A stretch of DNA of 64,000 nt, from the NCBI GenBank assembly GCA_043806595.1, contig JAZDGU010000029.1, positions 2,548-66,547 of the forward strand, in the 5' to 3' direction. Position 1 is the first letter of the stretch. Every line of letters begins with the position of its first letter. Made by a program: the position numbers and the translations under genes. Source of the DNA: Candidatus Micrarchaeota archaeon. GTDB lineage: Archaea; Micrarchaeota; Micrarchaeia; Norongarragalinales; SBBD01. The notes beneath the pieces are model-generated. The model was not told where the DNA came from and made no database searches. It worked only from the letters and a program-made list of their open reading frames with translations. Positions 9,864 through 57,899 of this stretch are shown here, piece by piece.

Positions 9864-12800
9864 TTGGAGCCTGAGCAAGCCATCGCCGAGATACGCGCTG
9901 GGGACAAGCCGGAGCCGCAGCAGGCGCCCGGCCTGCCGGTAAAGCAGGAGGCCGCCGGGGAACTCGCCGTGGTCATAAGCGCGCTCAAGGACAAGCTCAC
10001 CGACGTTAGCAAGAAGAACCGGAGCCTCCGGCTGACCACGCTAAACATGCGCTCGCATTTCGACCTCGGCACGCTCGCCGAGGGCAAGCCCGCAGATGCG
10101 CTCCTCGAGAAGATCACTTCCGGCAAGAAGGCGCGGCTTGTCAGCCTGTTCGCCCACGACGAGGAGAAGATGAATGCCGCATACAGGCTCTCCCAGCTCC
10201 AGCTCGAGGCCGACTTCTTCGAGAAGGAGACGGGCAACTACGACCTCTACGTCGGGTACCCGTTCGCGGAAGGCGCTTTCGCCGACGGCACCTACTTTAA
10301 GTGCCCGCTCGTGCTCTTCCCCGTGGTCCTGAGGAAGGACTACCGGAGGCTTGAGCTGGCCCTCGAGCCCGACCCGGACCGCGCTCCCGTGCTCAACCGC
10401 GCCTTCCTCATCGGCTTCCAGAAGTTCAACAGCATAGCCTTCGATAACGAGGTCCCGGAGGAAATCGACGAAAACGGCGACCCGTTGGAGAAGGCGTTCG
10501 CGAAATACGCCGAACTCGGAATGAAATTCGAGAACCGCAGGACCCTCGAGAACAACCTGCAGACTTACGTGCAGAACCGGGGCAAGACCACGTCATCAAG
10601 GCTTCGCGGCAAAATCAAGGTCCTCAAGAACGCGGTGCTCGGACTGTTCCCGCAGACCGCCAGCACGCTTCTCTCGGACTACGAGGCGCTCAAGAGGGAC
10701 CCGCCCACAGCAGGCCTCCTGCACGACTTCTTCCAGGAACCCGACGACGGCAACCCCGCGCTCAGGCTCAAGCAGACGCGAATCGACGTCCCCGTCGTAA
10801 CCGAGGTGGACGACAGCCAGGAGGAGGCCCTCGCTGCGGCGCGCGTCTTCGACGGGGTGGTGGTGCACGGCCCGCCGGGGACCGGCAAGTCGCAGGTCAT
10901 AGTCAACCTCATCACCGGCGCGGTGTCGCAGGGGAAGCGCGTGCTCGTGGTGTGCGAGAAGCGCGCGGCGCTCGACGTCGTCCACAACAGGCTCCTCGGA
11001 ATCGGCCTCGGCGACCTCGCCGTGCTCGTCCACGACCACGGGAAGGACCGAAACGCGGTGTTCGAGAAAGCCGCGAGGATACTCGCCGACTACGCCGACC
11101 GCAGGCTCCCGGGGGCGGAGTTCGACGGCGCGAGAATGGAGGCGGTGCTCGACCGGCTGTACGCGAACAACCGCGCCATGCACGAGAAGCTCGCGTGCGG
11201 CGCGAGCCTGCACGAGCTTTATTCCGGGGACCCGATGCCCAAGGGCCCGGCGCTTCCGACGCTCACCCTCGAGGACCGGGTTACGTTCGCGGGGCTCAAG
11301 GACATCCGGGCGAGGCTCGAGGACACCATCCCGCTCGCGGTGCGCCACGATGCGCTGCAGGAGAAGACGCCGGCGAGGCGCAACCTCAGCGAGGTGTCGT
11401 CCGCGGAATGGAGGACGCTCGAGGAATCGCTCGAGACCGCGGAGCGCATGGAGCCGCTGCTGCACGGGCTGTGCTCGTCTTCCGCATGGAAGCTGCTCGA
11501 GCTAGCGAGGCTCGGCATACACTATCCCGTCACCCTGCGGCTCGAGGAGGACCTCGTCAGGCTCACGCGCTCGGGCATTGGCAAATTCACGGACGCCGCG
11601 TACTGGAAGGCGGCGCGCTACCTCGACGGGCTGGTCAAGCGGTGCGGCGAGGGCCGGAAGGAGAAGGACGCTGCGCTGAAGGCGATTGCGGGCGCGAGCA
11701 CGGCACACCGCCCCAAGACGCTGGAATCGATAGAGGCGCTCAGGACTTACAACTCGTGGATGAGGAACGTCGCCGGCGCGCTTGAGGCGCTGGAGGGCAC
11801 GTTCGGGCAGGACGCGACGGGAAGGGCGATACAGAAGGCCGCCGCAGGCGGGGACTACTCCGCGGAGCTCTCGGAAATCCGGCAGGCGCTCAAGGACAAG
11901 GACGGAGCGCTCACGCTAGACCGGCAGATCAAGGCGCTTTCCCCGGAGGAAAGGATCGCGTTCGAGATAGTCTACCCGCTCGTGAAGTCCGGCTACGGCG
12001 TCTCGAAGTCGCTCGACTCACTCGAGCACGCGGTGTACTCGAAGTGGATACAGCTGGCGGAGCAGTCGCGGCAGGACTCTTTCCTGGAAAGGGGCCAGCA
12101 TGAGAAGCTGCAGCGCGAGGCGAGGTCCTCGGCAAAGAAGCGCAAGCATTTCGCGCGCAGGCAGGCTGCAGCGGCATGGCTCGCGGGCATCATCCAATTG
12201 CCATACGGAAAGCGGAAGGACCTGCAGTTCCAGGTCGAGAAGCCGAGGCACAAGTGGCCCCTGCGCAGGCTGATGAACGAGCACGCGCCGGCGCTCCTCA
12301 AGATATTCCCGTGCTGGCTCGCCTCGCCGGCGACGGTCTCCTCGATTTTCCCGCTGAAGGAGGGCATGTTCGATTACGTGGTGTTCGACGAGGCCTCGCA
12401 ATGCCCAATAGAGCACGCGGTACCCGCCATGCACCGGGGCAGGCAGCTCGTGGTCGCCGGGGACGAGAAGCAGCTCCCGCCGTTCGATCTTTTCGAAGCG
12501 TACCTCGAGGAGGGCGAGCGCGGCGACGACGAGGACCCGCGGCCGAAGCCCCTGCAGGACGTCAGCGAGACCAAGTCCCTGCTGCAGCTGGCCCGCAAAC
12601 GCTACCACGAGGTCCTGCTCAAGTGGCACTACCGTTCGAGGCACGAGGAACTGATCGGCTTTTCGAACCATGCCTTCTACCGCGGGCGCATCGCGCACAC
12701 GCCGAACGCCTCCGCCTCCGACGAGCCGCCCATCGAGTGGGTGCGCGTCAACGGCACGTGGGACCACAGGAAGAACAGGGCCGAGGCCGAGAAGGTCGTG

Positions 12801-13652
12801 AGGCTCGTGGACCAGCTGATCTCCGGCCGCAACCCGCCTAGCGTCGGCATAATCACCTTCAACGCCAACCAGAAGGAGCTCATCCAGAACCTCCTCGAAC
12901 GCAAGGCGAGGGACGACCCTGACTTCTACAGGAAATACAAGCGCGAACGCGAGCGCATGCAGAACGAGGAGGTGCAGGGCCTCTTCGTGAAGAACATCGA
13001 GAACGTGCAGGGCGACGAGAGGGACGTGATCATCTTCAGCATCGGCTACGCGCCGTCTCCAGCGGGCAACGTCGTCGCGCAGTACGGAAGCCTCGCCGCC
13101 GAGGGCGGCGAGAACCGCCTCAACGTCGCCATTTCGCGCGCAAGGGAGATGATTTACGTCGTCGCCAGCATCGCTCCCGAAGACCTGCCGGTGAACGAGG
13201 ACTCGCCGACGGGCCCGAGGCTGCTGAAGGAATACCTCAGGTACGCGAAATTCGTCTCGGACGGCAAGACGCGGGACGCCGACACTCTTCTGCATTCGCT
13301 GAGCAGGATGTCCGGCGGGACGACGATGCATGCTACGGAGGCAAACCCGCTCGCCGTCAGGCTGGCGGAAACGCTGCAGGACCGCGGCCTCGAAATAGAC
13401 TCGAAGATCGGAGCGTCCGCGCACGGCCTCGAGCTCGCCGTCGTGAAAACCAAGAAGCCGCTGAGCTATTCGCTTGGCATCGAGTTCGACGGCAAGGAGT
13501 ACGACGGCATGCGCGAGCTCAAGGAATGGGAGCTCCACCGGCCGGAGTTCCTCGAGACGCGCGGCTGGAAGCTGCTGCGGCTTTCGAGCAGGGAATACTG
13601 GCAGGACCCGGACTCCATCCCCCAGCTTGTCAAGCAGGAGGCACGGCGGTGA
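9864..13652 (+). CDS. Upf1/DNA2-like SF1 helicase with N-terminal DUF4011-like region and C-terminal restriction-endonuclease-like (DUF559/REase_MTES_1575-type) domain
   Basis: Walker A VVHGPPGTGKSQVIVNL, motif II VVFDEASQC, helicase C-terminal motifs GDEKQLPP, NVQGDERDVIIFS and VAISRAREMIYVV. C-terminal LSYSLGIEFDGKEY...GWKLLRLSSREYWQDP resembles DUF559. First codon is TTG right after an in-frame stop. Confidence 0.75.
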   Translation: MEPEQAIAEIRAGDKPEPQQAPGLPVKQEAAGELAVVISALKDKLTDVSKKNRSLRLTTLNMRSHFDLGTLAEGKPADALLEKITSGKKARLVSLFAHDEEKMNAAYRLSQLQLEADFFEKETGNYDLYVGYPFAEGAFADGTYFKCPLVLFPVVLRKDYRRLELALEPDPDRAPVLNRAFLIGFQKFNSIAFDNEVPEEIDENGDPLEKAFAKYAELGMKFENRRTLENNLQTYVQNRGKTTSSRLRGKIKVLKNAVLGLFPQTASTLLSDYEALKRDPPTAGLLHDFFQEPDDGNPALRLKQTRIDVPVVTEVDDSQEEALAAARVFDGVVVHGPPGTGKSQVIVNLITGAVSQGKRVLVVCEKRAALDVVHNRLLGIGLGDLAVLVHDHGKDRNAVFEKAARILADYADRRLPGAEFDGARMEAVLDRLYANNRAMHEKLACGASLHELYSGDPMPKGPALPTLTLEDRVTFAGLKDIRARLEDTIPLAVRHDALQEKTPARRNLSEVSSAEWRTLEESLETAERMEPLLHGLCSSSAWKLLELARLGIHYPVTLRLEEDLVRLTRSGIGKFTDAAYWKAARYLDGLVKRCGEGRKEKDAALKAIAGASTAHRPKTLESIEALRTYNSWMRNVAGALEALEGTFGQDATGRAIQKAAAGGDYSAELSEIRQALKDKDGALTLDRQIKALSPEERIAFEIVYPLVKSGYGVSKSLDSLEHAVYSKWIQLAEQSRQDSFLERGQHEKLQREARSSAKKRKHFARRQAAAAWLAGIIQLPYGKRKDLQFQVEKPRHKWPLRRLMNEHAPALLKIFPCWLASPATVSSIFPLKEGMFDYVVFDEASQCPIEHAVPAMHRGRQLVVAGDEKQLPPFDLFEAYLEEGERGDDEDPRPKPLQDVSETKSLLQLARKRYHEVLLKWHYRSRHEELIGFSNHAFYRGRIAHTPNASASDEPPIEWVRVNGTWDHRKNRAEAEKVVRLVDQLISGRNPPSVGIITFNANQKELIQNLLERKARDDPDFYRKYKRERERMQNEEVQGLFVKNIENVQGDERDVIIFSIGYAPSPAGNVVAQYGSLAAEGGENRLNVAISRAREMIYVVASIAPEDLPVNEDSPTGPRLLKEYLRYAKFVSDGKTRDADTLLHSLSRMSGGTTMHATEANPLAVRLAETLQDRGLEIDSKIGASAHGLELAVVKTKKPLSYSLGIEFDGKEYDGMRELKEWELHRPEFLETRGWKLLRLSSREYWQDPDSIPQLVKQEARR

Positions 13653-16697: not shown

Positions 16698-17396
16698 ATG
16701 GGCATCATATCCCGCCTGGGGGAGAAGCTCAGGGCCGCTGGAGGCAGGAAGCCGGCCGAAGAGGTCCGGGTTGACTCCTTGAAGGGCCGCGTCACCCTTT
16801 CCGCAGCGGACATCCGGGTAAGGATGGAACTTTTCAAGCTTTTCCCGGGACGAAGGGCGTGGGGCTTCGAAATCGTCGTCGAGAACGTCTACGGCAAGGA
16901 ACTCCACGACGTCCTCATCTGGTTCACGTCATCCAAGCATGCCACGCTGGACAGGCTTCCCGAAGGGAAGATGGCGATAAAAACCGTCGAGCTTTCGATG
17001 GACGAGGCCCCGCTTGCGGATATGGCGGTGCGCATCGAGCGCGCCCACGCACAGGGTCGCCTCACAAGCCACTTCACGGTGCCCCTGCAGAAGGTCATGC
17101 GGGAATTCCGAGAGGCGGGAAGGATTGACGTCATCGAGGAGGAGCCGGCAAGGCGTCGGGTTTCCGAGCCGGTTCCAACGTGGAGGAGCAGGCCGCCGGT
17201 TACCGCGGCCAAACCCGCGGTGGAAACTGCCGTGCCGGACCCGCTGCAGAGGCTAAGGGAAATCAATCGCGAGAAGGCCGACCTGACCGCGAACTTCATG
17301 AAGCGCAAGGTCGACTACGCGGCATACTCCCAGCTGATGAACTCCCTCCAGAAGGAGGAACTCGACATCAAGGCGAGAATCGACTCGAGGAAATGA
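16698..17396 (+). CDS. hypothetical protein with C-terminal coiled coil
   Basis: 232-aa ORF with host-like codon usage. TATA-like box 23 nt upstream. Confidence 0.45.
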   Translation: MGIISRLGEKLRAAGGRKPAEEVRVDSLKGRVTLSAADIRVRMELFKLFPGRRAWGFEIVVENVYGKELHDVLIWFTSSKHATLDRLPEGKMAIKTVELSMDEAPLADMAVRIERAHAQGRLTSHFTVPLQKVMREFREAGRIDVIEEEPARRRVSEPVPTWRSRPPVTAAKPAVETAVPDPLQRLREINREKADLTANFMKRKVDYAAYSQLMNSLQKEELDIKARIDSRK

Positions 17397-17643
17397 ATTC
17401 CAGCCAAGGCCAATGCACTTCGAGGTAAGCGCCAGACATCAGACATAGGTATGCTCGTCACGGCGTTGGAAGTCGAGCACCTGGATTTTCTTGGCAGACC
17501 AGTCGACGAAATACTTAATCCTGAAACTAGACAATCGGACTCTGTAGAATCCATCGCTTCCGGATAATTGTATTTGTTTAGCTGTCCCCTAGCCAGCTGA
17601 CTGGTAAATAATTGATTCCTACCGAAAAGTATATATTCTTAAT

Positions 17644-17937
17644 ATGTATATAATATATATTATGAAAATCGAGATTTTCGTGTGCAAGAATTGTGGCAGA
17701 GAACACCGAAAGAAAGTGTACGCCAATGCGTCTGAAGGAATAGCCGACCTTTTTACCGAGCGTTTTTTCACGCCCATCTGGGAGAAATTCAAAGACGAAC
17801 CCCACGAGCCGCTGGAAAAATTTTGTAAGGACTTAATGTTTTTCACCATCTACACCTATCACTTGAACAAGAGGCGAATTCACATTGCGAAAGATAGCGT
17901 TGAACACTCAAACGGAACTGAAACTCCACAACATTAG
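17644..17937 (+). CDS. small CxxC ORF in the AT-rich IS leader (possible IS accessory protein or spurious)
   Basis: 97-aa ORF containing CKNCG, inside the IS upstream of the transposase. Confidence 0.25.
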   Translation: MYIIYIMKIEIFVCKNCGREHRKKVYANASEGIADLFTERFFTPIWEKFKDEPHEPLEKFCKDLMFFTIYTYHLNKRRIHIAKDSVEHSNGTETPQH

Positions 17938-18035
17938 AGGGTTCCTGAAGAAGACGGTCACAAAATTCGGCACCGGCGCCAAAGTCGACTGCCCTAAAGA
18001 ATATCTCGGAAAACCAGTTTACCTAGTGATCATCG

Positions 18036-19361
18036 ATGAACGTGAGAATACGACTTGAGCGAGCATTGCTTCAAATTGCAGAATTGGAAGAAAAGATAAC
18101 CGTGCTCGAGAAGGACAAGAAGTTGCTCGAAAACGAATTGCGGAAGTACCAGAACCCTAACACCCCACCGTCCGCACACCCGCACCTGAAACCAGACTCG
18201 ACACCATTTGGAAGGCGCCGCAAACGCGGCGCCCCACTCAACCACCAAGGCGCTACGCGCCCGTGGAAGAACGCAGATGAAACCAGAGAAATCACTGCCA
18301 GAGAATGCCCCGGATGCCACAGCCCGGATATCCGCGTGATTGGCCAGCGGCACCAACAAGTCGAAGAAATGCCGCCAGACATACAACCCAAAGTAATTGA
18401 TGTTGCCCGCGAAGTCTGCCAGTGCAACGCCTGCCACCTCAAGTTTCAAGCCCGAGACGGCCGCACTCCCATACAAGGACGCTTCGGAATCAACCTAATG
18501 GTCCTCACAATCTTCCTCAAATTCATCGTGCGCGGCGTCCTGCGCAAAACCGCAGGCTTTCTCGAGGCAGGATTCGCCTTGCGAATCACTCCAGCCAGCG
18601 TAAACGCAATAATTACCCGAGCCTCACAGGCTGCCGAGGGTGAGTACGAGCAGTTGAAGCAAAAAATTCGCGTGGCGCGAATCGTTTACGTGGACGAGAC
18701 GAGCTTTTCTGTTCTCGGCGCGAAATGGTGGGTCTGGGTCTTCCGTTCAGATACGGACTTGCTCATCGTCATCCGGCACGACCGGGGGAACCCGGTCGTG
18801 AAAGAAGTGCTTGGGGTGGCTTTCAGTGGAATCGTGGTGTGTGACGGCTGGCGGGCTTACGATTGCCTTTCGCTTGCGAGCATCCAGCGTTGTTGGGCGC
18901 ATTTGCTTCGCAAGTCGGCCGAGTTGGAGGAACAGTCGGTGGCGGGAAGGCATTTTAACGAGAAGCTGGAGCGGTTGTTCAAGTGCATCGAACGGTTTAA
19001 CCGGAAACCGCGTACTGAAGAAGAACGTTTGCGAAAGTACGGGTTGTTGACGGTTAGGCTGCGGGAAACGATTCGGTATTACTCGGGTTATCCTGAGTGC
19101 GGGGGGGTAGCGAATTACGTGGGCAACCGTTTAGGGGAGTGGTTTACTTGTGTTTGGCTCGAGGGAGTCGAGCCTACGAACAATTTTGCCGAGCAGGCCA
19201 TTCGCGAGACGGTCGTGGTTCGTAAGATTATCGGCGCGTTCCGTTCACAGGGCGGTGCGAGGGCTTATGAGAAGTTGGCTTCGCTTCTTGCCACATGGCA
19301 ATTCCAACGGCGTGACGTGGCGAAAGAACTTACGCGAATGTTGTCCACGGGATTATGCTGA
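18036..19361 (+). CDS. IS66-family transposase (TnpC-like DDE)
   Basis: N-terminal leucine zipper, Zn-finger CPGC..CQCNAC, and IS66 hallmarks VYVDETSFSVLG...WWVWVF, QRCWAHLLRK and TNNFAEQAIRETVVVRKIIGAFRSQGGARAYEKLASLL. Confidence 0.85.
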   Translation: MNVRIRLERALLQIAELEEKITVLEKDKKLLENELRKYQNPNTPPSAHPHLKPDSTPFGRRRKRGAPLNHQGATRPWKNADETREITARECPGCHSPDIRVIGQRHQQVEEMPPDIQPKVIDVAREVCQCNACHLKFQARDGRTPIQGRFGINLMVLTIFLKFIVRGVLRKTAGFLEAGFALRITPASVNAIITRASQAAEGEYEQLKQKIRVARIVYVDETSFSVLGAKWWVWVFRSDTDLLIVIRHDRGNPVVKEVLGVAFSGIVVCDGWRAYDCLSLASIQRCWAHLLRKSAELEEQSVAGRHFNEKLERLFKCIERFNRKPRTEEERLRKYGLLTVRLRETIRYYSGYPECGGVANYVGNRLGEWFTCVWLEGVEPTNNFAEQAIRETVVVRKIIGAFRSQGGARAYEKLASLLATWQFQRRDVAKELTRMLSTGLC

Positions 19362-19536
19362 CCAGCTAAACAAATACGGATAATTTACTTAAGTCGAAGC
19401 GTTTTGCGGGGACGGGTTCGGTTGCAAGTACGCCGACAAGTTCGTGAATCCTTTGCCGCATTCTGGCATCCGTTTTTCGAACGGTCTTGAGCGCCTTTGG
19501 GCTGAATTCTACGGAAAACACGCCAAGCACCCTGAA

Positions 19537-19737
19537 TCAGAACAAATCCTTGGAATAAGCAATGGATTTCCCGGCGTCCATATCCTCTTTTATTCGGCGC
19601 AGTCTGGCCAGTTCGCTGGCGGATACTTTTTCTTCGGGAATCAGGCTCAGGAGCAAGGCGTTGTTTTTTTCGACTTCCTTCTGAAGATGCTTCACTTCCT
19701 TGAACAAATGGTTAACATTGACTTCCATCCAAAACAC
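19537..19737 (-). CDS. small coiled-coil ORF in low-GC DNA flanking the IS (uncertain)
   Basis: 66-aa ORF, KEVKHLQKEVEKNNALL...ELARLRRIKEDMDAG. No partner gene. Confidence 0.2.
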   Translation of the reverse strand: MFWMEVNVNHLFKEVKHLQKEVEKNNALLLSLIPEEKVSASELARLRRIKEDMDAGKSIAYSKDLF

Positions 19738-19901
19738 CGAACTTATATGGATTTGGCCATATTTAATGCCGTCGTTTATGCAAATTTAAGCGCATAATTT
19801 GCTATCGTGCCGAATCCGGCACAGTGACGCCAATATTTTTTTCGGAGTCCAACCCACGGCCAGCAGCTCGGCCAGGGCGCCTGATGACTCACTCCCTTGC
19901 G

Positions 19902-36266: not shown

Positions 36267-39200
36267 TCAGCCTGAAGTCGCGGCCTGGGCGCGCAACGCC
36301 TCGTTGAGAAACTCGAGCGCCTTCCGGTAGCCGGCGTCATTGCCCTGGTCGACGAGCTTTTCCGCCTCCTCGATGGACTTGACGACCTCCGGCGGGCACT
36401 GGTAACCGTCGCACCACTCCTTATAGCGCGCCAACAGGTTCGTCGCGGCTTCCGACAATGGAACAGGCGTCTGCGGGCCAGACTGCTCGTCCGACACCGG
36501 CACCCCAGCCCCCTCCAGCGCCGAATACCCGGGCAGTGCCGAAGACGTGACCACTGCTTCCGTGACGCTGAACGAGTCCGTCTGGACAGGCTTGGATGCC
36601 GCGAAGAAGGACTCCGCAATCGCCTGGGTGGCCTGCCTGCCGTTGAAAGCGGTAAGCAAATCATACTGGGGGACTCCGGCATACTCCGGGCCCTTGATGA
36701 AGTAGAAGCAGAACGGCTTCGTCCTCGGGCACAAGGCATTGGCGTCGACGCGGTTGAGGCAGACGGTCTTGCTTGCCTCGTCGCGCGTGCAAATCTCCTT
36801 GACCGACGTGACCGGGTCAGGGGCGTTGTCCAAGGTGGGGTTGTTGAAGACCACGACGTGGTTGCCGTAGCGGTAGTCCAACTCGGCGCGCACGGGCCTC
36901 AGGTCCGCGTAGGTGAGTATTGGTCCGAGAACGGCGACGATGGTCCCAACCAGCCGCGGGATCTTTGCGGGGGCGAACATGGACTTGAACCTGCTGCCGG
37001 CGTTCGTGAACTGCTTGAAGAAGCCTCCCGTGGTCTTCGCCGCCTTCGCGACGTCGTCGCCCTCGCTCTTGAGGACGTTCCGAGTGATGTCGATTATCGG
37101 TTTCTCGCTCTTGACGTTTCCTCCGGAAATCAGGGTCCGAGTTCTCGATAAAAGCCGGTCAGTCACTGTCGCTCCCCTTCCGAATTTTACATCGGCATCT
37201 GGAATTGAGGACATCGCGTTTTGCACCGTTCCCAGCCTAGGATACTTCGCGGTCATTTTGCGCAGGAAATCGTCGTACTGATCGGCAGGCACTATCGATT
37301 CCGCCTTGAGTATTCCCTTGAAGCTGAACGGCTTTCGGGTTCCTGTTGCGACATCCCCCCTTTGCCTCAAGTGCTCAAGCACGTGATCAAGTGTCTCTTC
37401 CTTCAAATATTGTGCCTCACTACTAATTCCAGCAGGCCATGGACCAGAGTGTAGGAAATTCCCGTTTCTAGGACCCTTGGCGGCAGTAAGCGAATCAACA
37501 ACATCGGCCCAGAGAGATGTCGAACCCGCCTTGGTGGATCTTGTGCCTCTCAACGAGGTCACTATCTGCTCCATGCGGCGCTGATACAAGGCGTTATCTA
37601 CGGGATTAAGCGACTTCTGCAGGGTGTCGTCGGCGAGCTTGTCGAAGAGTTCCTCCATCGCGTCGCGCCCGAGCATGTCGGACATGGCATCCATTATTAC
37701 TGGGTCGTTGGGTGGAATCTTCACCTTCACCAGTTCGTGGAAATCGGCGGCAGCCTTGCCCTTGGCGACAAGTTTCGTGATTGTCCTTGCGCTGAGGTCG
37801 CCGCCGAGGCCGAGGCGTTCTGCTTCCTTGATGCCATTGCGGAGGCCGATCGAGGCGTCGTAAGCCGAGCCCATCGATAGCCCGTAGTAGCGCGTCCCCT
37901 GTTCGGCCATCCACGCCGTGCTCCCCCAAGGCAGAATCGACCTGAACGCCTTCCCCGCTGGCAGCACAAGGTCGGGCTTGGCAACGACCTTGTCGTCTCC
38001 CTTGACGTACTCCACTCCCGAGAAAACCGCGCTGAAAGCCGTGAACGTGAGGAACTCGCTGGCAAATCTTGCGCCCAGGAACTTGGCGCTGAACGCCTGC
38101 CCGATGTTCCTCATAGTAGCGGCGCTGACGCCTTCGGCCGGCTTGAGGCCGAAGTTGGGGATGTACGCGGTAAACGTGTTAAGCAGGTAGTATGACGCGC
38201 CCTGCGCGCAGGCGTTCGCGGCGTCGCACGTGTTTGCGTCCTTGAATACGGCGTTTCCGACGTTGACGACGGAAGTCGAGCCGCACAATGCTAGCGTCGA
38301 AGCGAAGCCCATGACGGTTTCCTTGAGAGCGTAAGATACGCCGAAGGTCGCCATGATACCCTGGATGACCAAGTTTGGAGCGCTCGCGGCCATCACCGAA
38401 CCGGTGACCGCGCCCAACCGCTTGGTGCAGTAGCCTGCGTCGCTGTAGGACGGCGAATAGGAGAACAGGTTGGGACTGCTGCCATACAAGGCGGAGATCA
38501 AGCCCTGGGCGTTCCGCTCGTCCAACTCGCTGTTTCCGCCGCGGTAGGAACCAAAGTAAATCAGCTTGAACTTGTCGAATATGCTCTTGGCTTCCGCGGC
38601 GTCATTCGGCTTGCGGAGCTCGAAATAGGGCAGCTTGGTGTTCGCCTTGACCTGCTCGCGTCCGACGATGATTTGCGGGTCCTCGGCGGTAAGCAGGCCG
38701 GCGTTCGCGAGCGTCTCCTCGCACGCCTTGAACTGCGTCGGGTCGGCGGGATTGACGGCCATCTCTATTGACGCGGAGCGCAGCCACGCCTTCTTGTCCG
38801 GGAAGGAATTGGGGCTCTTGCAGAGGCCGAGGCGCGCAGTCACGATGTAGATGCCGCACGAGGATATGCCGCCCGAGGTGTCCCACTTGAAGTCTTCTAC
38901 GTACTTCTCGCCAGAAGCGTCGCGGAGCTCGCCGAGGCCCTCGTCAACGGACTTCTGCAGCTCGTTGAAAGAGACGCGCGTGTTCGCGCTCTGCACGATG
39001 ATGCTTTTATAGAAGCCGTTGCGGTTGTGGACGACGAGCCTCGGCTCGGACGGGTTGCAGAACGTCGAGATTTCCTTGGGGTATTTCTCGTCGAAGTAGA
39101 ACTTGAGGACGAACTCCTGCAGCTTCGCACCGAAGCCCTTGTAGGCGTCCTGCAGCTGTTCGCCGTTGCCCGTGCAGAAGTTCGTCTGGCACTGCATCGT

Positions 39201-42200
39201 CCCACCGGCGAGCGCGTCCAGCTTGCCCTGACTCTGGGCTCCAGTAGCGCCGGCATCGGACGCCAACAGCGCATCCGCGGCGTTTTCAGGAGTCCCGGCG
39301 CCGTCGGCAGGCGTCTCGAAGTAGAGGAAAACCCCGCCCGCGGTCTGGGCCGCGCCGCCTCCTGCGGGCTCGCCGGTGCCGCCCTCCTGCGCGGCCTTCT
39401 TGGCATCGTCCGTCGAGGCGAGCTCGGGCACCGGGACGGTGAGCGTCTGCTGTGGCACGAGGTCGCCCATGGGCGAGGACGGGAAGAACTCCTTGAGGGT
39501 TTCGTCGAGCGGCTTGCCGCCGACACCGACAATGACGGCGACCCTGCGCTGTTCGGGCTTGGTGGAAATCGCGCCGACGGAACGGATCTCGATGAAGCCT
39601 TCACCGGCCTTTTCCGCGGTGCATTCCGCGATGTAGCCGGTTCCGGCCTTCAGCGCCTGCGGGATGTCGCAGGATGCAAGAATGCTTCCGTCGCGGGATT
39701 TCGCGGCGTAGGAGAGCGAGAGGTCCTCGTCGTAGTTGTTCGTCATGGAGAGCCAGCGCTTGTGGCCGACGTCCTTGAAGACGAGCACCTGCGGCTCGCC
39801 GTTCTTGGCGTTGGTCTGGCCCTGCTGGTAGTTGACGTAGAAGCCGTTGAGCGCCGCGGACAGCTGCTTGCCGAGGTTGCCGAGGCACTTGCCGGTGTCC
39901 ACGAACGAAATCCTGATGGGCGCATCCTTGGCGGGCACCGTGCCCTGCCTTACCACGCCGAAGACGATCAGCTTGCCTTCCACGGACTGTTCCTCGAACG
40001 CCTCGGGCTTGAGGCAGCCGTACTCGTCGAGGAACTGCTCGGGGACGCCGACCTCGACCTCGAAACTCTGCCTCGGGCACGGGTCTTCGCCGGCGAGGTT
40101 GCGCTCGTTGACCCGCATGGAGACCAATTCCTTCAGCCAGGCGCCCTTCTTGGTGATGCTTTTCACCGCGTGGTCGAGGTCGCCCTTGGTAGAGACTATT
40201 GAGGGTCCCTCGAGCCATCCCTGCGGGCCGGAAAGCCGGAGGCCGGAGTTGAGCGGCGTGTTGATTTCCAACCGCACTTCCCTGTTGGAACTTCCCTCGT
40301 TCTTGACGCACAGCAGTTGCGACTGCGTGAGGTGGGAGTTCTCGTTGTTGAAAGTGAAGGTCAGGTCGCCCTCGAGAAGTATCGGGAAGGCCTCGTCGGT
40401 AATCAGCAGCATGCTGCCCTTCGTCTGCTTCTCGCACAGCACGAAGACGGTCTCCTCCTTCTTGGGGACGAGGACCTCGACGGGCGCGGCAGGGGCCTCC
40501 TGGCCGTCAGCAGCTGGTGCTGCAGCAGAGGTCAATATCCGGAAGGAAGGCGGGAAGATGACCTTGCGCACCTGCTTGAGCCCGTATTTCCGCCCGTTGC
40601 GGGAAATCTGGACGGAGAGGCAGGCTCCGTTGAAGTCGGTCTCGCGCGACACCTTGTCGACTTCCGAGGCGGTTGCGGGAAGGGTGTAGGTCACTTCCTC
40701 GCTGAAGATGCCCTTGATGCGGAAGCGTTCCTTGGGCTGGGCCATGTCCGTGGGGGCAATGCGCAACACGAAGAGCGTGTTGTCGGGGATGGTGAACTCG
40801 AGGGGGTCGGAGCCGAAGCTCTCTTCAGTGGTGCGCTTGGACATGATGCGCGTGGCATCGGCCTCGAAGCGGTCCAGCGTCTGTGGATCGGACAGGGTGA
40901 GGGTCACGGGGTTGGAAAGCCGTACTGATTCCATGGGCGAGTCCTTCCAGTAGTCGGTCTTGAGGCCGAGGAGGCTCTCCTGCGGCACGGACACCCCGAC
41001 GTCGAAAGGCAGGGTGAACTCGAAGTCCATGCCCTGCAGCATGGCGAGCTCGGGGTCGACGGTTGTGAAGGTTATTGGCTGGTTGGCGGCAAGCAGGACG
41101 TCGAACGAGGAGTCTTTCCTTTGTGTCTGGGGGGTGAAGCCGGCGGGGAAGGTCGCCTCGTAGCTCGTCGTGGCGATGCGGTTCTGGACGAGGTTCGACT
41201 CGCGGGGGAAGTGCCAGACGGAAGGCGCGGGGAAGGCGACGGTGAAGCTCTCCTGCCCGCGCACGGATTCGGAAGCCTTGAGGATCCTGCGGTCCATGGT
41301 GAGCATCGAGCCTGCGTGAACCTCGAGCTTGGCCGTGCCCTGCGGGGTCTCGGCGGAGGAGGACGCGCCTTCCGCGAGCATCCTGGCTCCGTTGGCGAAC
41401 TCGACGAGCTTGGCGTCGGAGGTCGGCACGTTCCTCACATTGACGTTGGGTGCCAGTGAGAGGCTGAAGCCAGCTGGAATCTCCTTCTCGGAGCCGTAGA
41501 CGCCGAACTCGGCTGGTCCGAGGGACATCTGCGTGTACGGAAGGACGTCAACGGAATAGCTGGAGTCGGGGAGCTTGAGGCCCTTGCGCGCGACACCGTA
41601 GAACGAGAGCTGGCTGCGGTCGTTGGAGATGGAGCTGACGGTGAAGCCGTCCTGCGCGACGCTCACCGAGACCTGCTCGTCCTTCTGGATTCGGAACATC
41701 ACGCGGAACGGCAGCATCATGCTGAGCCTGCCGTAGGGGTCCTGCTGGGCGAAAGGCGAGGGCATGCGGACGGCGCTGCCCGCGGGTATTGTTATCTTCT
41801 TGAAGTCGTTGGAGTCCGTGGAAATTACTGCGTCTGCGGGCAGGGAAATCGTCGTGCCGCTGCGGAACTGGAGCGCCTTGTTGCCGTTGAACTCGTCGCG
41901 CTTGACGCGCACGAACTCCTGCGGCAGGAATACGGCCTCCACGGGGAAGTAGACCTCGTAGGCGTCGCGGGAGGAGACGAAAGGCGTCAGCTGGATGCGG
42001 AAGGGCGTGTTGGAGGGAAGTGAAGCACGGCGCTGGCCGATGTCCCGCTGGCGCGTAAGCCGTATGCTTGCGGGGATGGTGATGTCGAAGTCCTCGACGG
42101 TCGCGGTCTGGAGGGAGCCCTCGCGCGTGAACTCGGTCTCGGGCTCGAAGTCCATGAACAGGCTGACGGGGAAGCGGAGCTCCCACGCGGTGTCGGCCAT

Positions 42201-45200
42201 CGGCTGCTGGTAGGGCTCGTAGCGGTTGGAGTAGCGCTGGTTGCTTGCGACTGCTATCTTGCGCGCCCACGCCGGCGGCACCTGGAAGAACGCGCCCGCC
42301 GGGACTATCGCGGCGAGCGAGCCCGCGGAGGTCTGCAGGGAGAATATGTAGGACGCCTGGTAGGGCGACTGCGCGAGATTCGAGAGGTCGCCGACCTGCG
42401 CGCCCTGCTCGAAGAGCATCGAGTCGCCGCTCGGCAGCTCGACGTACTCCGTTCCGTCGGGGTTCTCCTTGTGCAGGGTGCCCTTGGGGAACTGGAAGAC
42501 GAGCTCGACGGGAAGCGCGAGCCGCACTCCGTTCTTGACCTCGCCGACGTCGGGCAGGGCCTCGGTGGCGCTCACCTCGATTTCGTCGGACGAGCACGGC
42601 GACCCTCCGGCAGCCGTAGTCGCCTTGTAGGTGCCTGCCGCGGGGTAGCTGCATTTGATTGAACAGGAGCCTGTGGTGCCGGTGCAGTCCTTCGCGGTGA
42701 CGGTGCGACCGTTGCCGCAGTTGACTGGAAAGACGTTGGGGGCCTTGGGCAGGTCGTAGTAGCTTATCGTGAGGAGCGTGTTCTGGTTGCGGGAGAGCGT
42801 GGTCGGGTCCGCGGTTATGACGCACTGGGGCTCGGCCTCTGACAGCGGGTCCTCGTCTGGCTTGAGCACGTCGACCTGCACGGCACTGCATTGCGTGCCG
42901 GAGGCGGCTGCCTGGACGGCGTATGTGCCGTCCTGCTCGTAGTAGCACTTGGCCTGGCATGTTCCGGTGGTGCCGCTGCAGCCGGCGGCGTTCGCTGTCC
43001 TGCCGTTGCCGCAGTTGATGAGGAGCGCGTTGGGGGCGCGGGCGAGGTTGTAGTAGTTCGCCGTCACCATCGTGAACTCGCCTTCCTTTATCCTCGAGGG
43101 GTCGATGGTGAGCGCGCAGGAGGGGCGGGATGCCTGAACCTCCACGTATGCCGTCGTACATTCGACGCCGCCGGAAACCGCCAAAACCGTGAACTCGCCT
43201 GCCCGGGGATACCGGCATTTCGCCGAGCACGAGCCGGACTCGCCGGAGCATGAGACCGCGGAAACCTTCCTTCCGTTGCCGCACTCGATTTCGAAGGAGT
43301 TCGGGGAAGGCGAGAAGTCGGAGAAGGCGACGGTAACCGAGGATTCCTGGCCCTCGTCGAGGAGGGAAGGTTCGACGGTGAGGGCGCAGGACGGTTCGGG
43401 CAATGGCGTGGGGGTGACGGTGCCGCCCGAGCCGACGTCGCTGCAGCTGTCCGAGGAAGTGGCCGAATACGTCAGGGAGAGCTGGCGTTTGGAGGAGACG
43501 CCTTGCGTCGTTGCGATAAGCTTGAGCGTCGCGTTGCGCTCGTCCGGCTCGGTTTCGCAGGGGTCGACGGGCATCGCCTTGGCATAGACCCGAAACTCCG
43601 CTGAGCCGCCGCTGGGGACCACCACGGACAGGGGCTCGACGGAGAAAATCCTCGGGAGCGTGTTCTCCTGGTTGACGAGCAGCGGGTAAGGCGCGTCGTT
43701 GGTGACGGTTATCGACTGCATGTCGGACCTGACCTTCGGGGGCTGGAGGGCGAACTGCAGGGACTCGCTGGAGACCTGCCAGAGCGTGCCAAGCTCCTGC
43801 TGGACGAAAGAGGTCTTGACGGTGAACGGCACATATTCCTCCTGAGAGCTTCCGCCGAGCCTGGCGGAAATCCTGATGCGGCCGTTTATCTTCTCGGAGA
43901 CCGTCGAGGCGCGTTCGGCGATCTGGAGGACGGCATCGTCGATTTCGGCGGTCAGGCTCACGGTGCCGGACTGGCGCGCCTTCAACCGCAAGGAGAAGGT
44001 GTCGACGTTGATGCGGGTGTACTTTGGAATCTGCGAGAACTGCAGGGACATGGTCACGGGCACACTGTCCTCGAGGAGGTTGTTCACGGAGAACGCCTGC
44101 TGCTGGGGGTCGCGGGACTCGACGGCGAGGGCAAGGGCAGTTGAGTCGACTTCGACGAGCCTGACTGCGGAAACCAGGAGGGTGCCGCGCTTGGACTTGA
44201 AGCCCTCGGCGTCAATCTTGAAGGATACGTACCCCACGCTGACCGGCCTGATGCCCTCCGCGCGGTACGACGCGCTGCCGTCCCTGCCCTCGGTGTAGAC
44301 GCCCTCAACCTGCGCGCCCCTCAAGGCGTCCGAGCCGTCCCCGAGAACAACTGAAGCGTCCTTGACCGGGAGTCCGAGGGAGTCCGAGACCTTGAACGTT
44401 ACCACGCCGTCGGCAAGCGCCTGCAGCGACTTGGGCGAGTAGGAGACCTTCAGGTCGGGCTTGGTGCCGACGACGCGCGCCGCGAGATTGCGGGTCACCG
44501 TCGACTCGCCGAAGCGCGCCTGCAGCGTCAACGGGACGTCGTTTGAGAGGCGCTGAGCGCGGATTGAGAAGGTGCCGGCTGCGTTGTCATCGGAAGTGGT
44601 AAGCGATATCGCCTGCTCGTCGCCCTTGCGCGCACGCGCGCGGCTGTCACCGCTCACGCCCTCCTCGAGGGAAAGCGAGAGGTCGTCCGCGGGCGAGGTC
44701 AGCTCTATGACCGCGCCGCGTGGGGCCGCTAGCGTGAACTTGAGGGAGAACGTTTCGCCGGACTCCGCGGCGTAGTTGTCCGAGACCGTGCCGCCCCTGC
44801 CCTCGAAGTGAGACTCGAGGCAGACCTCGCCCTCGCAGATGCCGCCGAAGGAGAGGGGAAGCGACACGGAATTGGTTGCCGCGGAGAGGGCGTCGGGCCC
44901 GGCGACGGAGTCGACGGGGTCGCGGAGGATCTCGCGCGAGGTGTAGAACGCGGCGCGGTATTGGACGTTGACCGAGGCGCGGGAAAGCGGCCTGGTGCGT
45001 ATCTGAACGGACACCTCACGGGTGCCCTCGAAGGGCTGGAAGGTGAAGTCCGCGAACTTGTAGCCTTGCACGTCCTCGCCCGCCAGAAACAGGGCGGCGG
45101 CATTCCCGGCCGGGGTCGGCGTCGGGGTCGCGGTGACAGTCGCGGTAGGCTCCTCGCGCGAATACTCGGTGCCCTTGCGGACCACCGCGCTGCCGGAACC

Positions 45201-47240: not shown

Positions 47241-47320
47241 GCGGATTATCGGAAAGATAGGGCGAAAACACTTATTTAAATACCATCGTAGCGGCCAAAT
47301 GGAAAAAATTCGCGTCCTGC

Positions 47321-47656
47321 TCAGCGGACCCTCCGCTGGAGAGGCAGGACCGAACCGCACTTCCTGCAGACCTTCTCCTTGTGCTTCCAGTTCAGTTCGA
47401 AGTCCGTGCCTCCGCACTCGGGGCAGGCGCGTATCTCGCTCTTGTGGAAGTCCATCCAGCCCTCCTTGCCGTCGCGGCCGGCGAAGGACTGGTGGGAGAA
47501 GGCGACGCGCTCGCGGCGGTCGGTCAGCTGGGGCTTGTCGTCATCGAACTTCTTCTTCTCGACGGCGGGCTTGACCTTGCGGCTGGAGCACCGCGGGCAG
47601 ATGACCGCATCCTCGGCCTCCCAGTGCAGCGAACAATTGTCGCAGGCGTATTTCAT
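47321..47656 (-). CDS. double zinc-ribbon protein (111 aa)
   Basis: CDNC...CPRC and CPEC...CRKC pairs. 80 nt upstream of the giant gene on the same strand. Confidence 0.5.
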   Translation of the reverse strand: MKYACDNCSLHWEAEDAVICPRCSSRKVKPAVEKKKFDDDKPQLTDRRERVAFSHQSFAGRDGKEGWMDFHKSEIRACPECGGTDFELNWKHKEKVCRKCGSVLPLQRRVR

Positions 47657-57079: not shown

Positions 57080-57224
57080 AAGTGAACTACTGCGGCGTAT
57101 TAAAAAACGATGCCTGCGGCGAGGGGTCCGGACACCGTCCGGCAGATGCCCCGCGCGCCCGAAACCCCGTCTCCCGCCGCGAACGGTTTTTAAGGGATTC
57201 CCCGCTAATGCACGCATGTTCCTC

Positions 57225-57899
57225 TTCGACAACGTGCTCAAGCTGCTGGCGAAGGTCTTCCGGGTGGTGAACCGGCGGAGGTCGGTGGCCATCACGTTCC
57301 TCGTCGGGTCGCCGCTCACAGTCTACTGGTTCCGGACGATATGGCTGGAGCAGCCGTTCACGATGCAGGTGGTGGCGGTGTACAGCCTCGTCTTCCTGCC
57401 CTTCCTGCTCTACAAGGCGCTGCTGTACTTCTTCCTTTCCCTCTTCGATACCGTCGTGATATTCTTCGCGGACTACACGAAAAGCTACGACGTCGACTTC
57501 GAGAAGGTTCGCGCGCGCGTCGCCAAGATACTCGTCGAGAAGAACGTAAAGTACCAGTCGCTCGACAGCATGGCTCTCGGCGCGGAAAGGGGCCTCCTTG
57601 AACGACTGCGCGGCTGGCTCCACATAAAATACCCGCTCATCTTCGTCTGCGCCGACGACCCGTTCGTTGTAATAAAGATATTCAAGTCCCTCGGCTCGCC
57701 GCGCATCCAGGACCTCAAGCACCAGATTACGCACAAGGAGGCCATCAGCGTCAAGATATTCTTCGAGGAGGAACCGAGGGCGCGCGTGCTCGCCAAGCTG
57801 ATAATGAACTCGCTGGAGGTGCTCAACACCGACCAGAGGGAGGCCGAGCCCCCCGGAATTGCAGTGCAGGCGATCCAACTCTCCGACGAGGGCAGGTGA
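57225..57899 (+). CDS. hypothetical membrane protein, paralogue A (224 aa), unrecognised family
   Basis: N-terminal TM helices, then cytosolic motif EKVRARVAKILVEKNVKYQSLDSMALGAERGLL...PLIFVCADDPFVVIK. Start at first Met after the divergent intergenic region. Confidence 0.5.
   Translation, partial: FDNVLKLLAKVFRVVNRRRSVAITFLVGSPLTVYWFRTIWLEQPFTMQVVAVYSLVFLPFLLYKALLYFFLSLFDTVVIFFADYTKSYDVDFEKVRARVAKILVEKNVKYQSLDSMALGAERGLLERLRGWLHIKYPLIFVCADDPFVVIKIFKSLGSPRIQDLKHQITHKEAISVKIFFEEEPRARVLAKLIMNSLEVLNTDQREAEPPGIAVQAIQLSDEGR

What the first reader, a model, noticed from the sequence alone, without database searches (positions are those of the whole stretch)
17555..19401. IS66-family (ISBst12-like, single-ORF) insertion with imperfect terminal inverted repeats
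The 441-aa ORF carries the IS66 transposase hallmarks: a leucine zipper, a CxxC Zn-finger, a DETS catalytic region, and the QRCWAHLLRK and NNFAEQAIR motifs. The flanks are imperfect inverted repeats sharing the 15-nt core GTATTTGTTTAGCTG, which on the right overlaps the transposase stop. The left repeat region is followed by an AT-rich stretch containing a 97-aa CxxC ORF. GC is well below the chromosomal average. No target-site duplication was obvious by eye.
Basis: partly seen in the sequence, partly recalled or inferred. Interest (0 to 1): 0.5.

Follow-up and report, generated by a model that had tools for sequence, protein, structure and literature searches.

The report
Archaeal IS66 insertion splitting a toxin gene
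This is an ordinary, intact 1.8-kb jumping gene (IS66 family) in a Micrarchaeota genome that landed inside a toxin gene of a toxin-antitoxin pair; its only unusual trait is that it carries three genes rather than one.

Summary
The finding is real and is a mobile element. The element spans window 17570-19377 (1808 bp). Its ends are perfect 15-nt inverted repeats, GTATTTGTTTAGCTG. The 441-aa ORF is an IS66-family DDE transposase by Pfam and NCBIfam, above both curated cut-offs.

The element is not single-ORF. A 57-aa DUF2080 'transposase-associated' gene overlaps the transposase start.

Removing the element and one duplication copy in silico restores an 88-91-aa RelE/ParE toxin gene on the minus strand. 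It aligns without gaps to intact homologues from other Micrarchaeota, and an antitoxin-like gene lies upstream.

Related elements with the same ends and 8-bp duplications are common across Archaea. The closest named one is ISH10 (34% identity). The closest unnamed ones are 72-75% identical and have two genes. NCBI already annotates the transposase and DUF2080 genes on this contig.

Verdict: a new, unnamed member of a known kind. Interest is low. No second copy, empty site or evidence of current activity was found.

The parts
17562..17569 (.). Left copy of the 8-bp target-site duplication, GGATAATT
   Evidence: Identical to 19378-19385 and directly abuts the left inverted repeat. 31 of 50 related elements also have perfect 8-bp duplications.
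17570..17584 (+). Left terminal inverted repeat, GTATTTGTTTAGCTG
   Evidence: Perfect 15-nt inverted repeat with 19363-19377. 0.01 matches expected by chance in the window. The first 12-14 bases (GTATTTGTTTAG, mostly GTATTTGTTTAGCT) end the relatives L001-L010, L081 and L095.
17623..17661 (+). AT-rich block just upstream of the first gene. It is an inferred archaeal BRE/TATA-type promoter (CGAAAAG TATATATT, about 25-30 nt before ATG 17662), which would give a leaderless or near-leaderless transcript.
   Evidence: The block CGAAA..TATA...ATATATATTATG is conserved among four three-gene elements, while the sequence between it and the repeat is not. Its function as a promoter is inference only.
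17662..17937 (+). orf91: a small conserved protein of unknown function with invariant C8, C11, H15, C55 and H67 (probable zinc site).
   Evidence: Six homologues, five of 91 aa and one 63-aa fragment, 69-81% identical. Only 7 clusters among 1.84 billion representatives. Wherever the contig extends far enough (7 of the 10 P0125 places, plus L091) an IS66 transposase gene follows; the DUF2080 ORF between them was checked in L081, L005 and L098. dN is 0.10-0.19 with saturated dS. No Pfam, NCBIfam or PHROG match. The AlphaFold model (pLDDT 82.5) shows a beta-hairpin plus two helices, with no PDB match.
17885..18058 (+). DUF2080 transposase-associated protein, 57 aa, TTG start. It overlaps the end of orf91 by 53 nt and the start of the transposase gene by 23 nt.
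   Evidence: Pfam PF09853 at E 7e-18. NCBIfam NF033496 at 44.6 bits against a cut-off of 22. NCBI annotates exactly this protein as MFH1106898.1. The TTG start is conserved in L081. DUF2080 ORFs lie upstream of the transposase in 17 of 80 related genome loci.
18036..19361 (+). IS66-family DDE transposase, 441 aa. It has an N-terminal coiled coil and two CxxC pairs (C91/C94, C130/C133). The catalytic residues are D220 (18693-18695), D270 (18843-18845) and E386 (19191-19193), with a CWAH motif at 286-289.
   Evidence: Pfam PF03050 at E 3e-30. NCBIfam NF033517 at 225 bits against a cut-off of 180. The listed residues are invariant in 20 homologues, except C94, which is conserved in at least 90%. 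NCBI names it MFH1106899.1, 'IS66 family transposase'.
19363..19377 (-). Right terminal inverted repeat (reverse complement of GTATTTGTTTAGCTG), one base after the transposase stop codon
19378..19385 (.). Right copy of the 8-bp target-site duplication, GGATAATT
19386..19530 (-). 5' part of the disrupted RelE/ParE-family toxin gene. The start is GTG 19530, or more likely GTG 19521 by comparison with homologues. As it stands the reading frame runs into the element and stops at 19366.
17439..17569 (-). 3' part of the disrupted RelE/ParE-family toxin gene (stop codon at 17439-17441)
   Evidence: Joining 17569 to 19386 restores a 91-aa ORF. That ORF aligns without gaps to eight intact 85-93-aa homologues at 66-82% identity, one of them named RelE/ParE toxin of Ca. 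Micrarchaeota. Pfam ParE_toxin matches over the full length at 22.2 bits, against a cut-off of 23. The DNA is 83% identical over 294 nt, without gaps, to an intact gene in L092.
19537..19728 (-). Antitoxin-like gene, 63 aa, immediately upstream of the toxin gene and intact
   Evidence: A homologous 63-aa ORF precedes the intact toxin gene in L093, and the DNA alignment (73% over 477 nt) spans both genes. No Pfam match. 'Antitoxin' is inferred from position.

Best explanation
Window 17570-19377 is a complete, structurally intact insertion sequence of the IS66 family.

Lineage and structure:
- It belongs to an Archaea-wide lineage whose ends read GTAyrTGTTTAGC and which makes 8-bp target duplications.
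- It carries three co-oriented, overlapping genes: orf91, a DUF2080 accessory protein, and the DDE transposase.
- These are probably transcribed from a promoter just inside the left end.

How it most likely works (inferred from what is established for DDE transposases and the IS66 family):
- The transposase binds the two 15-nt terminal repeats through its N-terminal coiled-coil and zinc-finger region.
- It cleaves at the GTA/TAC tips with its D220-D270-E386 site.
- It joins the ends to target DNA cut with an 8-bp stagger. Repair of that stagger produced the GGATAATT duplication.
- DUF2080, whose end overlaps the transposase start codon, most likely acts as a small cofactor or regulator made together with the transposase.
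- orf91, a probable zinc-binding protein, is an extra accessory gene of a rare sub-lineage.

What is shown:
- The element landed inside codons K-L-S of a RelE/ParE toxin gene of a toxin-antitoxin cassette in a Candidatus Micrarchaeota genome. This split the toxin and left the antitoxin gene intact.
- Its lower GC, perfect repeats, perfect duplication and intact ORFs point to a recent, horizontally acquired insertion.

Not shown: current activity.
For: Family:
- Pfam DDE_Tnp_IS66 at E 3e-30.
- NCBIfam IS66 equivalog at 225 bits against a cut-off of 180.
- The DDE residues and the CWAH motif are invariant in 20 homologues.

Ends:
- Perfect 15-nt repeats, with 0.01 matches expected by chance.
- Perfect 8-bp duplication.

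Lineage:
- 573 confirmed relatives in reference genomes, almost all archaeal.
- The same terminal sequence in dozens of them.
- 31 of 50 elements with both ends have perfect 8-bp duplications.
- ISH10 has ends GTACGTGTTTAGCCCC and the duplication CCGATCTA.

Accessory genes:
- DUF2080 passes the curated thresholds and lies upstream of the transposase in 17 of 80 loci.
- It is present in all eight relatives of at least 52% identity whose upstream region was examined.
- orf91 is conserved and under purifying selection.
- orf91 is always followed by the transposase gene where the contig extends far enough; the DUF2080 ORF between them was confirmed in L081, L005 and L098.

Insertion event:
- In-silico excision restores a full-length RelE/ParE toxin.

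Foreign origin:
- GC is 51.4% for the element against 61.8% for the window.
Against: - No second copy was found. The transposase is a singleton on one contig in a 15-billion-protein collection. The repeat occurs only twice in the window. The left end has no exact match in JGI metagenomes.
- No true empty site in a syntenic genome was found.
- Transposition activity and the roles of DUF2080 and orf91 are untested.
- The promoter is inferred from conservation alone.
- The zinc-finger Pfam model is below threshold (19.9 bits against 27.3).
- 19 of 50 related elements lack matching flanks. This probably reflects metagenome assembly across repeats, but it is unexplained.
Confidence: 0.9

Rival explanations
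1. The element is a stranded, no longer mobile copy. It is intact in sequence but silent, or dependent on factors absent from this host, and survives only because it was acquired recently.
For: It is a single copy in all data searched. A truncated relative (the left 585 nt only, 82% identical) sits in another Micrarchaeia genome, so this lineage does decay in these hosts. DPANN genomes are small and carry few insertion sequences (background knowledge).
Against: All three ORFs are intact, and both the repeats and the duplication are perfect. A sister element with an identical orf91 is seen next to at least three different left flanks in groundwater metagenomes.
Confidence: 0.25
2. orf91 and DUF2080 are passenger genes, for example a small toxin-antitoxin-like or addiction pair carried by the element, rather than transposition cofactors.
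For: DUF2080 has been reported as an antitoxin domain (SpnP2/DUF2080) paired with nuclease toxins (PMC10440598). It has also been reported as the C-terminal domain of CalpT (bioRxiv 10.1101/2024.05.08.593097). orf91 has no known fold or family.
Against: In most relatives DUF2080 occurs alone, with no partner, directly overlapping the transposase start. NCBIfam and Pfam both describe the family as transposase- or transposon-associated. orf91 has so far been seen only inside these elements.
Confidence: 0.1
3. One reading: a single-ORF ISBst12-type element whose upstream ORFs are chance reading frames in an AT-rich leader.
For: The size (1.8 kb), the absence of IS66 tnpA and tnpB, and the 8-bp duplication all fit the ISBst12 group as described in PMC12898284. 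The closest named relative, ISH10, is single-ORF.
Against: DUF2080 matches at E 7e-18. Both small ORFs have low dN with saturated dS. Homologues have conserved lengths. NCBI annotates the DUF2080 gene.
Confidence: 0.03
4. The repeats are a chance match, or the region is an assembly chimera, and there was no transposition event.
For: None beyond the general risk in metagenome-assembled genomes. Some related contigs do show mismatched flanks.
Against: Chance expectation for the repeat is 0.01. The perfect 8-bp duplication has a chance of about 1.5e-5. Exact restoration of a conserved toxin reading frame on excision cannot arise from misassembly.
Confidence: 0.02

Closest known systems
Unnamed two-gene archaeal IS66 elements (e.g. 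L095/L096, carrying transposase P0004; L001-L004, L006)
   Same: The transposase is 72-75% (P0002, P0004) or about 61-63% (L001-L004) identical. The ends are the same GTATTTGTTTAGC. They make 8-bp duplications (ATTTTTTT in L095). A DUF2080 gene overlaps the transposase start.
   Different: They are 1.56-1.59 kb long, have a short 45-aa DUF2080 and lack orf91. The first 60 residues of the window's transposase resemble the three-gene type instead (65% against 40%).
Three-gene elements L081/L082 (groundwater metagenomes), L005 (Woesearchaeota) and the truncated L098 (Micrarchaeia)
   Same: The gene order orf91 - long DUF2080 - transposase is the same. Sizes are 1784-1820 bp. The first 14 bases of the ends (GTATTTGTTTAGCT) are the same. 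The AT-rich block before orf91 is conserved.
   Different: Transposase identity is only 58-59% overall. None of them is a copy of the window's element.
ISH10 of Halobacterium salinarum (NCBI: 'IS66-like element ISH10 family transposase')
   Same: IS66-family transposase at 34% identity over 97% of the length. Ends GTACGTGTTTAGCCCC. 8-bp duplication CCGATCTA. Length 1584 bp.
   Different: A single annotated ORF with no DUF2080 match. The host is a haloarchaeon.
ISBst12 group of the IS66 family (e.g. ISDge4 of Deinococcus geothermalis, PMC12898284)
   Same: No tnpA or tnpB. 8-bp direct repeat. The ends GTAACTGCTCAGCA follow the same GTA..TG.T.AGC pattern. The transposase is about 449 aa.
   Different: The group is defined by a single ORF, whereas this element has three. 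These elements are bacterial.
Canonical IS66 / IS679 (tnpA-tnpB-tnpC). The comparison is from background knowledge of Han et al. 2001 and Gourbeyre et al. 2010, which were not read here.
   Same: A TnpC-type DDE transposase with a CWAH motif, 8-bp duplications, and repeats beginning GTA.
   Different: Canonical elements are about 2.5-2.7 kb and carry tnpA and tnpB. Neither small ORF here matches any Pfam or NCBIfam family other than DUF2080.

Membership tests
IS66 family | The transposase matches the IS66 DDE transposase profiles above their curated thresholds | tested here: met
   PF03050 at 105.9 bits against a cut-off of 23.1. NF033517 equivalog at 225.4 bits against 180, covering positions 3-385 of 387.
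IS66 family | A conserved DDE triad with the CWAH motif between the second D and the E | tested here: met
   D220, D270, E386 and C286-W287-A288-H289 are invariant in 20 homologues. That these residues are catalytic is taken from knowledge of the family and was not tested.
IS66 family | Terminal inverted repeats beginning 5'-GTA(A) | tested here: met
   Perfect 15-nt GTATTTGTTTAGCTG at both ends. The fourth base is T rather than A.
IS66 family | 8-bp target-site duplication | tested here: met
   GGATAATT on both sides. 31 of 50 relatives also have one.
IS66 family, canonical IS66 group | tnpA and tnpB accessory genes upstream of tnpC | tested here: not met
   The only upstream ORFs are orf91 (no family match) and DUF2080. 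The element is 1808 bp long.
IS66 family, ISBst12 group | A single ORF, the transposase only (definition as given in PMC12898284) | tested here: not met
   Three conserved ORFs. Size and duplication length do fit the group.
DUF2080-associated archaeal IS66 elements (Pfam PF09853 'putative transposon-encoded protein'; NCBIfam NF033496 'transposase-associated protein') | A small DUF2080 gene directly upstream of, and overlapping, the transposase gene | tested here: met
   17885-18058 overlaps 18036 by 23 nt. The same arrangement is seen in 17 of 80 loci.
RelE/ParE type II toxin (the interrupted target gene) | Full-length match to the toxin family once the element is removed, with an adjacent upstream antitoxin gene | tested here: met
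   Gapless alignment to eight intact homologues at 66-82% identity, one of them named RelE/ParE toxin. An upstream 63-aa ORF is homologous to the one preceding the toxin in L093. The Pfam ParE_toxin score itself is just below threshold (22.2 against 23).
Active (currently transposing) insertion sequence | Multiple identical copies, excised circles, or polymorphic empty sites | tested here: not met
   Single copy. No empty site found. Read-level evidence cannot be obtained with these tools.

The most novel reading that the evidence does not exclude
orf91 would define an undescribed third gene of a rare IS66 sub-lineage confined so far to DPANN-type archaea (Micrarchaeia, Woesearchaeota) and groundwater metagenomes.
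- It is a small protein with invariant Cys/His residues and no detectable sequence or structural relatives outside these elements.
- It might regulate or target transposition together with DUF2080.
- The window's element would also be a recombinant. Its left module (orf91, long DUF2080, transposase N-terminus) comes from the three-gene type, and the transposase body comes from the two-gene type.
Probability: 0.35. Interest if true: 0.3.

Novelty: new member of a known kind. Interest (0 to 1): 0.15.

Why it matters
The significance is modest.
- It documents a clean, recent insertion event in a DPANN (Micrarchaeota) genome, a group with small genomes and few mobile elements.
- It shows inactivation of a RelE/ParE toxin gene by an insertion sequence.
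- It defines the exact ends, the duplication and the gene content of an unnamed IS66 lineage that is very common in archaeal metagenomes (more than 1600 transposase homologues) but poorly described.
- It shows that this lineage comes in one-, two- and three-gene forms.
- The DUF2080 and orf91 proteins are uncharacterised. No solved structure matched the transposase by sequence either. Any biochemical work on them would therefore be new, but nothing here challenges current understanding.

Tried and rejected
- Empty-site search. The 24-nt junction expected after excision has no exact match in JGI metagenome contigs. The intact toxin homologues sit in unrelated neighbourhoods, so they serve as a paralogous rather than a syntenic 'empty site'.
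- Search for other copies. The 28-nt left end has no exact match in metagenome contigs. An exact look-up of the transposase found no recorded contig. Its 90% cluster has one member.
- Reference genomes. The source genome, or a copy of the element, is not among the GTDB representatives; the best hit is 63% identical.
- DUF2080 and the transposase have no solved relatives by sequence.
- PHROGs gave no match for orf91, DUF2080, the antitoxin-like ORF or the 232-aa neighbour.
- The bacterial promoter and terminator scan is not informative for an archaeon.
- P0144, a 414-aa protein placed in the same 90% cluster as the DUF2080 protein, shows no similarity to the element. It was set aside as a clustering oddity.
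- The review of archaeal insertion sequences (PMC1847376) is not held in the library. The definitions of the canonical IS66 group therefore rest partly on background knowledge and partly on PMC12898284.
Full report
**What is in the sequence**

The region holds a 441-aa ORF at 18036-19361. A perfect 15-nt inverted repeat, GTATTTGTTTAGCTG, lies at 17570-17584 and 19363-19377. With up to two mismatches allowed, these are the only two occurrences in the 64-kb window, where 0.01 are expected by chance. Ungapped similarity between the two ends stops after base 15. The repeats are therefore short and perfect, not long and imperfect.

An identical 8-mer, GGATAATT, lies directly outside both repeats at 17562-17569 and 19378-19385. 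The element is thus 17570-19377, or 1808 bp. Its GC content is 51.4%, against 61.8% for the window. The left 466 bp are 41.6% GC and the transposase gene is 55.1%.

**The transposase**

The 441-aa protein matches Pfam DDE_Tnp_IS66 (E 3e-30, 105.9 bits against a cut-off of 23.1). It also matches the NCBIfam equivalog 'IS66 family transposase' (225 bits against 180, covering nearly the whole model). The Pfam zinc-finger model zf-IS66 is below threshold (19.9 bits against 27.3). No leucine-zipper model matched.

The two CxxC pairs are present: C91 and C94, and C130 and C133. So are DETS (220-223), CDGW (269-272), QRCWAHLLRK (284-293) and NNFAEQAIR (382-390). In an alignment of 20 homologues at 60-73% identity, almost all of these residues are invariant. 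D220, D270 and E386 are taken as the catalytic triad from knowledge of the family.

No solved structure matches the protein by sequence. NCBI already names this protein, MFH1106899.1, 'IS66 family transposase [Candidatus Micrarchaeota archaeon]'. It sits on an 87.6-kb contig.

**The element is not single-ORF**

A 57-aa ORF at 17885-18058, with a TTG start, overlaps the transposase start by 23 nt. It matches Pfam DUF2080, 'putative transposon-encoded protein' (E 7e-18). It also matches NCBIfam 'DUF2080 family transposase-associated protein' (44.6 bits against 22). NCBI annotates exactly this protein as MFH1106898.1.

- The 5.8-billion-protein database holds six homologues at 69-81% identity. 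Five are 91 aa and start at the matching methionine; the sixth is a 63-aa fragment.
- An exhaustive profile search of 1.84 billion cluster representatives found only seven clusters.
- Across the family, C8, C11, H15, C55 and H67 are invariant. This suggests a zinc site, but that is an inference.
- Between the window and two relatives, dN is 0.10-0.19 while synonymous sites are saturated. The same holds for the part of DUF2080 that overlaps neither neighbour. Both are therefore coding genes under purifying selection.
- orf91 has no Pfam, NCBIfam or PHROG match.
- An AlphaFold model built on eight sequences (pLDDT 82.5) shows a beta-hairpin carrying the CxxC, followed by two helices. It has no meaningful match in the PDB.

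Just upstream of orf91 lies an AT-rich block, CGAAAAG-TATATATT...ATATATATTATG. It is conserved among four three-gene elements, whereas the sequence between it and the repeat is not. I read it as an archaeal BRE/TATA promoter giving a leaderless transcript of all three genes. This is inference only.

**Relatives**

The transposase has more than 1600 homologues in the protein database, mostly on 1.4-2-kb metagenome contigs, which is typical of repeats that break assemblies. The closest are 71-75% identical. A scan of one genome per prokaryotic species confirmed 573 relatives. The best 80 are almost all archaeal: Nanoarchaeia, Woesearchaeota, Methanosarcinales, Thermoplasmatota, Halobacteria, Bathyarchaeota and Hadarchaeota.

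Their ends read GTAyrTGTTTAGC. The ten closest have exactly GTATTTGTTTAG at the tips, in most cases GTATTTGTTTAGCT. Of 50 elements with both ends and flanks available, 31 have perfect 8-bp duplications. Those duplications average 72% A+T.

Three architectures occur:
- About 1.42 kb with the transposase alone.
- About 1.56-1.63 kb with DUF2080 plus the transposase. This form is found in 17 of 80 loci, and Pfam confirms that even the short 45-aa version is DUF2080.
- About 1.78-1.82 kb with orf91, DUF2080 and the transposase. Examples are the window, L005 from a Woesearchaeote, and L081/L082 from groundwater.

The sister three-gene element carrying P0125 lies next to at least three different left flanks in different samples. 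Another Micrarchaeia genome holds a truncated copy, the left 585 nt at 82% identity.

The closest named element is ISH10 of Halobacterium salinarum, at 34% identity. It is 1584 bp long, has ends GTACGTGTTTAGCCCC and the duplication CCGATCTA, and has one ORF with no DUF2080.

The window's closest transposase relatives (P0004, 72-74%) sit in two-gene elements with the duplication ATTTTTTT. However, the first 60 residues of the window's transposase are closer to the three-gene type (65% against 40%). The remainder is closer to the two-gene type (66-88% against 44-68%). This hints at a recombinant origin.

**The target**

On the minus strand, the ORF at 19530-19366 runs into the element. Joining 17569 to 19386, which removes the element and one duplication copy, gives a 91-aa ORF. 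That ORF matches Pfam ParE_toxin over its full length at 22.2 bits, just under the cut-off of 23.

It aligns without a gap to eight intact proteins of 85-93 aa at 66-82% identity. One of them is named 'type II toxin-antitoxin system RelE/ParE family toxin [Candidatus Micrarchaeota archaeon]'. The segment KLSGSDGFYR, which spans the junction, is conserved in nearly all of them.

At the DNA level the reconstructed site is 83% identical over 294 nt, without gaps, to the intact gene in L092. There the 8-mer is present once, as AACTATCC. It is 73% identical over 477 nt to L093, and that alignment includes the upstream 63-aa antitoxin-like gene.

The element therefore split the toxin gene of a toxin-antitoxin cassette and left the antitoxin gene (19537-19728, minus strand) intact. 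The cassette itself is low in GC (47.9%). It lies between a class I/II aminotransferase gene plus an unknown 232-aa ORF on one side and an M17 aminopeptidase gene on the other. The intact homologues sit in different neighbourhoods, so no syntenic empty site was found. Exact searches of metagenome contigs for the empty junction and for the element's left end found nothing.

**Mechanism**

The following are shown:
- Family membership of the transposase.
- The ends and the 8-bp duplication.
- The three conserved genes.
- The disruption of the toxin gene.

The following are inferred from established knowledge of DDE transposases and of the IS66 family:
- The transposase recognises the 15-nt ends and cleaves at the GTA/TAC tips.
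- It inserts the element into a target cut with an 8-bp stagger.
- DUF2080 is made together with the transposase, since its end overlaps the transposase start, and acts as a cofactor or regulator.
- orf91 is an additional zinc-binding accessory factor.

An alternative for the small genes is a passenger role. DUF2080 has been reported as an antitoxin domain and as part of CalpT. Against this, it usually occurs alone beside the transposase.

Whether the element is still active cannot be told. It is a single copy in everything searched.

**Classification and novelty**

All tested defining features of the IS66 family are met. The canonical IS66 group requires tnpA and tnpB, and that feature is not met. 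The ISBst12 group is defined by a single ORF (PMC12898284), and that is not met either, although size and duplication length fit.

The best description is a DUF2080-associated archaeal IS66 element of the rare three-gene form. The genes are already annotated in GenBank, and the family, including its DUF2080 companion, is catalogued. What is new is:
- the exact delimitation of the element;
- the target gene;
- the recognition of orf91 as a conserved third gene.

This is a new, unnamed member of a known kind and is of low general interest.

Noticed in passing
window 17439-17569 and 19386-19760 (minus strand): The toxin-antitoxin cassette hit by the element is itself low in GC (47.9% against 61.8%). 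It has 66-82% identical homologues in other Micrarchaeota MAGs in unrelated neighbourhoods (L092, L093). The cassette therefore looks horizontally mobile in its own right.
   Followed up: partly
window 18036-19361: The transposase looks mosaic. Residues 1-60 are closer to the three-gene element L081 (65% against 40%). Residues 61-441 are closer to the two-gene element L095 (66-88% against 44-68%). GC content also jumps from 41.6% in the left module to 55.1% in the transposase gene.
   Followed up: partly
L098 3403-3987 (Micrarchaeia MAG GCA_041652355.1): A truncated relative of the element: left repeat, orf91 (81% aa identity), DUF2080 (86%) and the first 43 transposase codons. It has 82% DNA identity over 585 nt and then breaks off before a D12-class methyltransferase gene.
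   Followed up: partly
L081, L082 and 17 other related loci: 19 of 50 related elements with both ends lack matching 8-bp flanks. L081 and L082 are 1784-bp elements with different sequences on their two sides. This may reflect assembly across multi-copy repeats or recombination between copies. The cause was not resolved.
   Followed up: no
window 36267-47417 (minus strand): A giant 3716-aa ORF. Its only Pfam matches at E <= 1e-5 are CarboxypepD_reg and Big_1, with best stretches near the N-terminus. It may be a DPANN-style giant surface protein.
   Followed up: no
window 9864-13652 (plus strand): A 1262-aa protein with AAA_11 and AAA_12 helicase domains and a C-terminal REase_MTES_1575 endonuclease domain.
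   Followed up: no
window 53006-57319 (minus strand): A 1437-aa protein with NosD beta-helix and PQQ_2 beta-propeller matches.
   Followed up: no
window 16698-17396 (plus strand): A 232-aa ORF immediately left of the cassette. It has no Pfam or PHROG match.
   Followed up: no
window 1-64000: No tRNA gene, no Rfam family at gathering threshold and no notable tandem array in the whole 64 kb.
   Followed up: yes
L097 1686-2930 (protein P0144): A 414-aa protein with no Pfam match is listed in the same 90% cluster as the 57-aa DUF2080 protein. It shows no similarity to the element by tblastn or blastn. This is probably a clustering artefact.
   Followed up: partly
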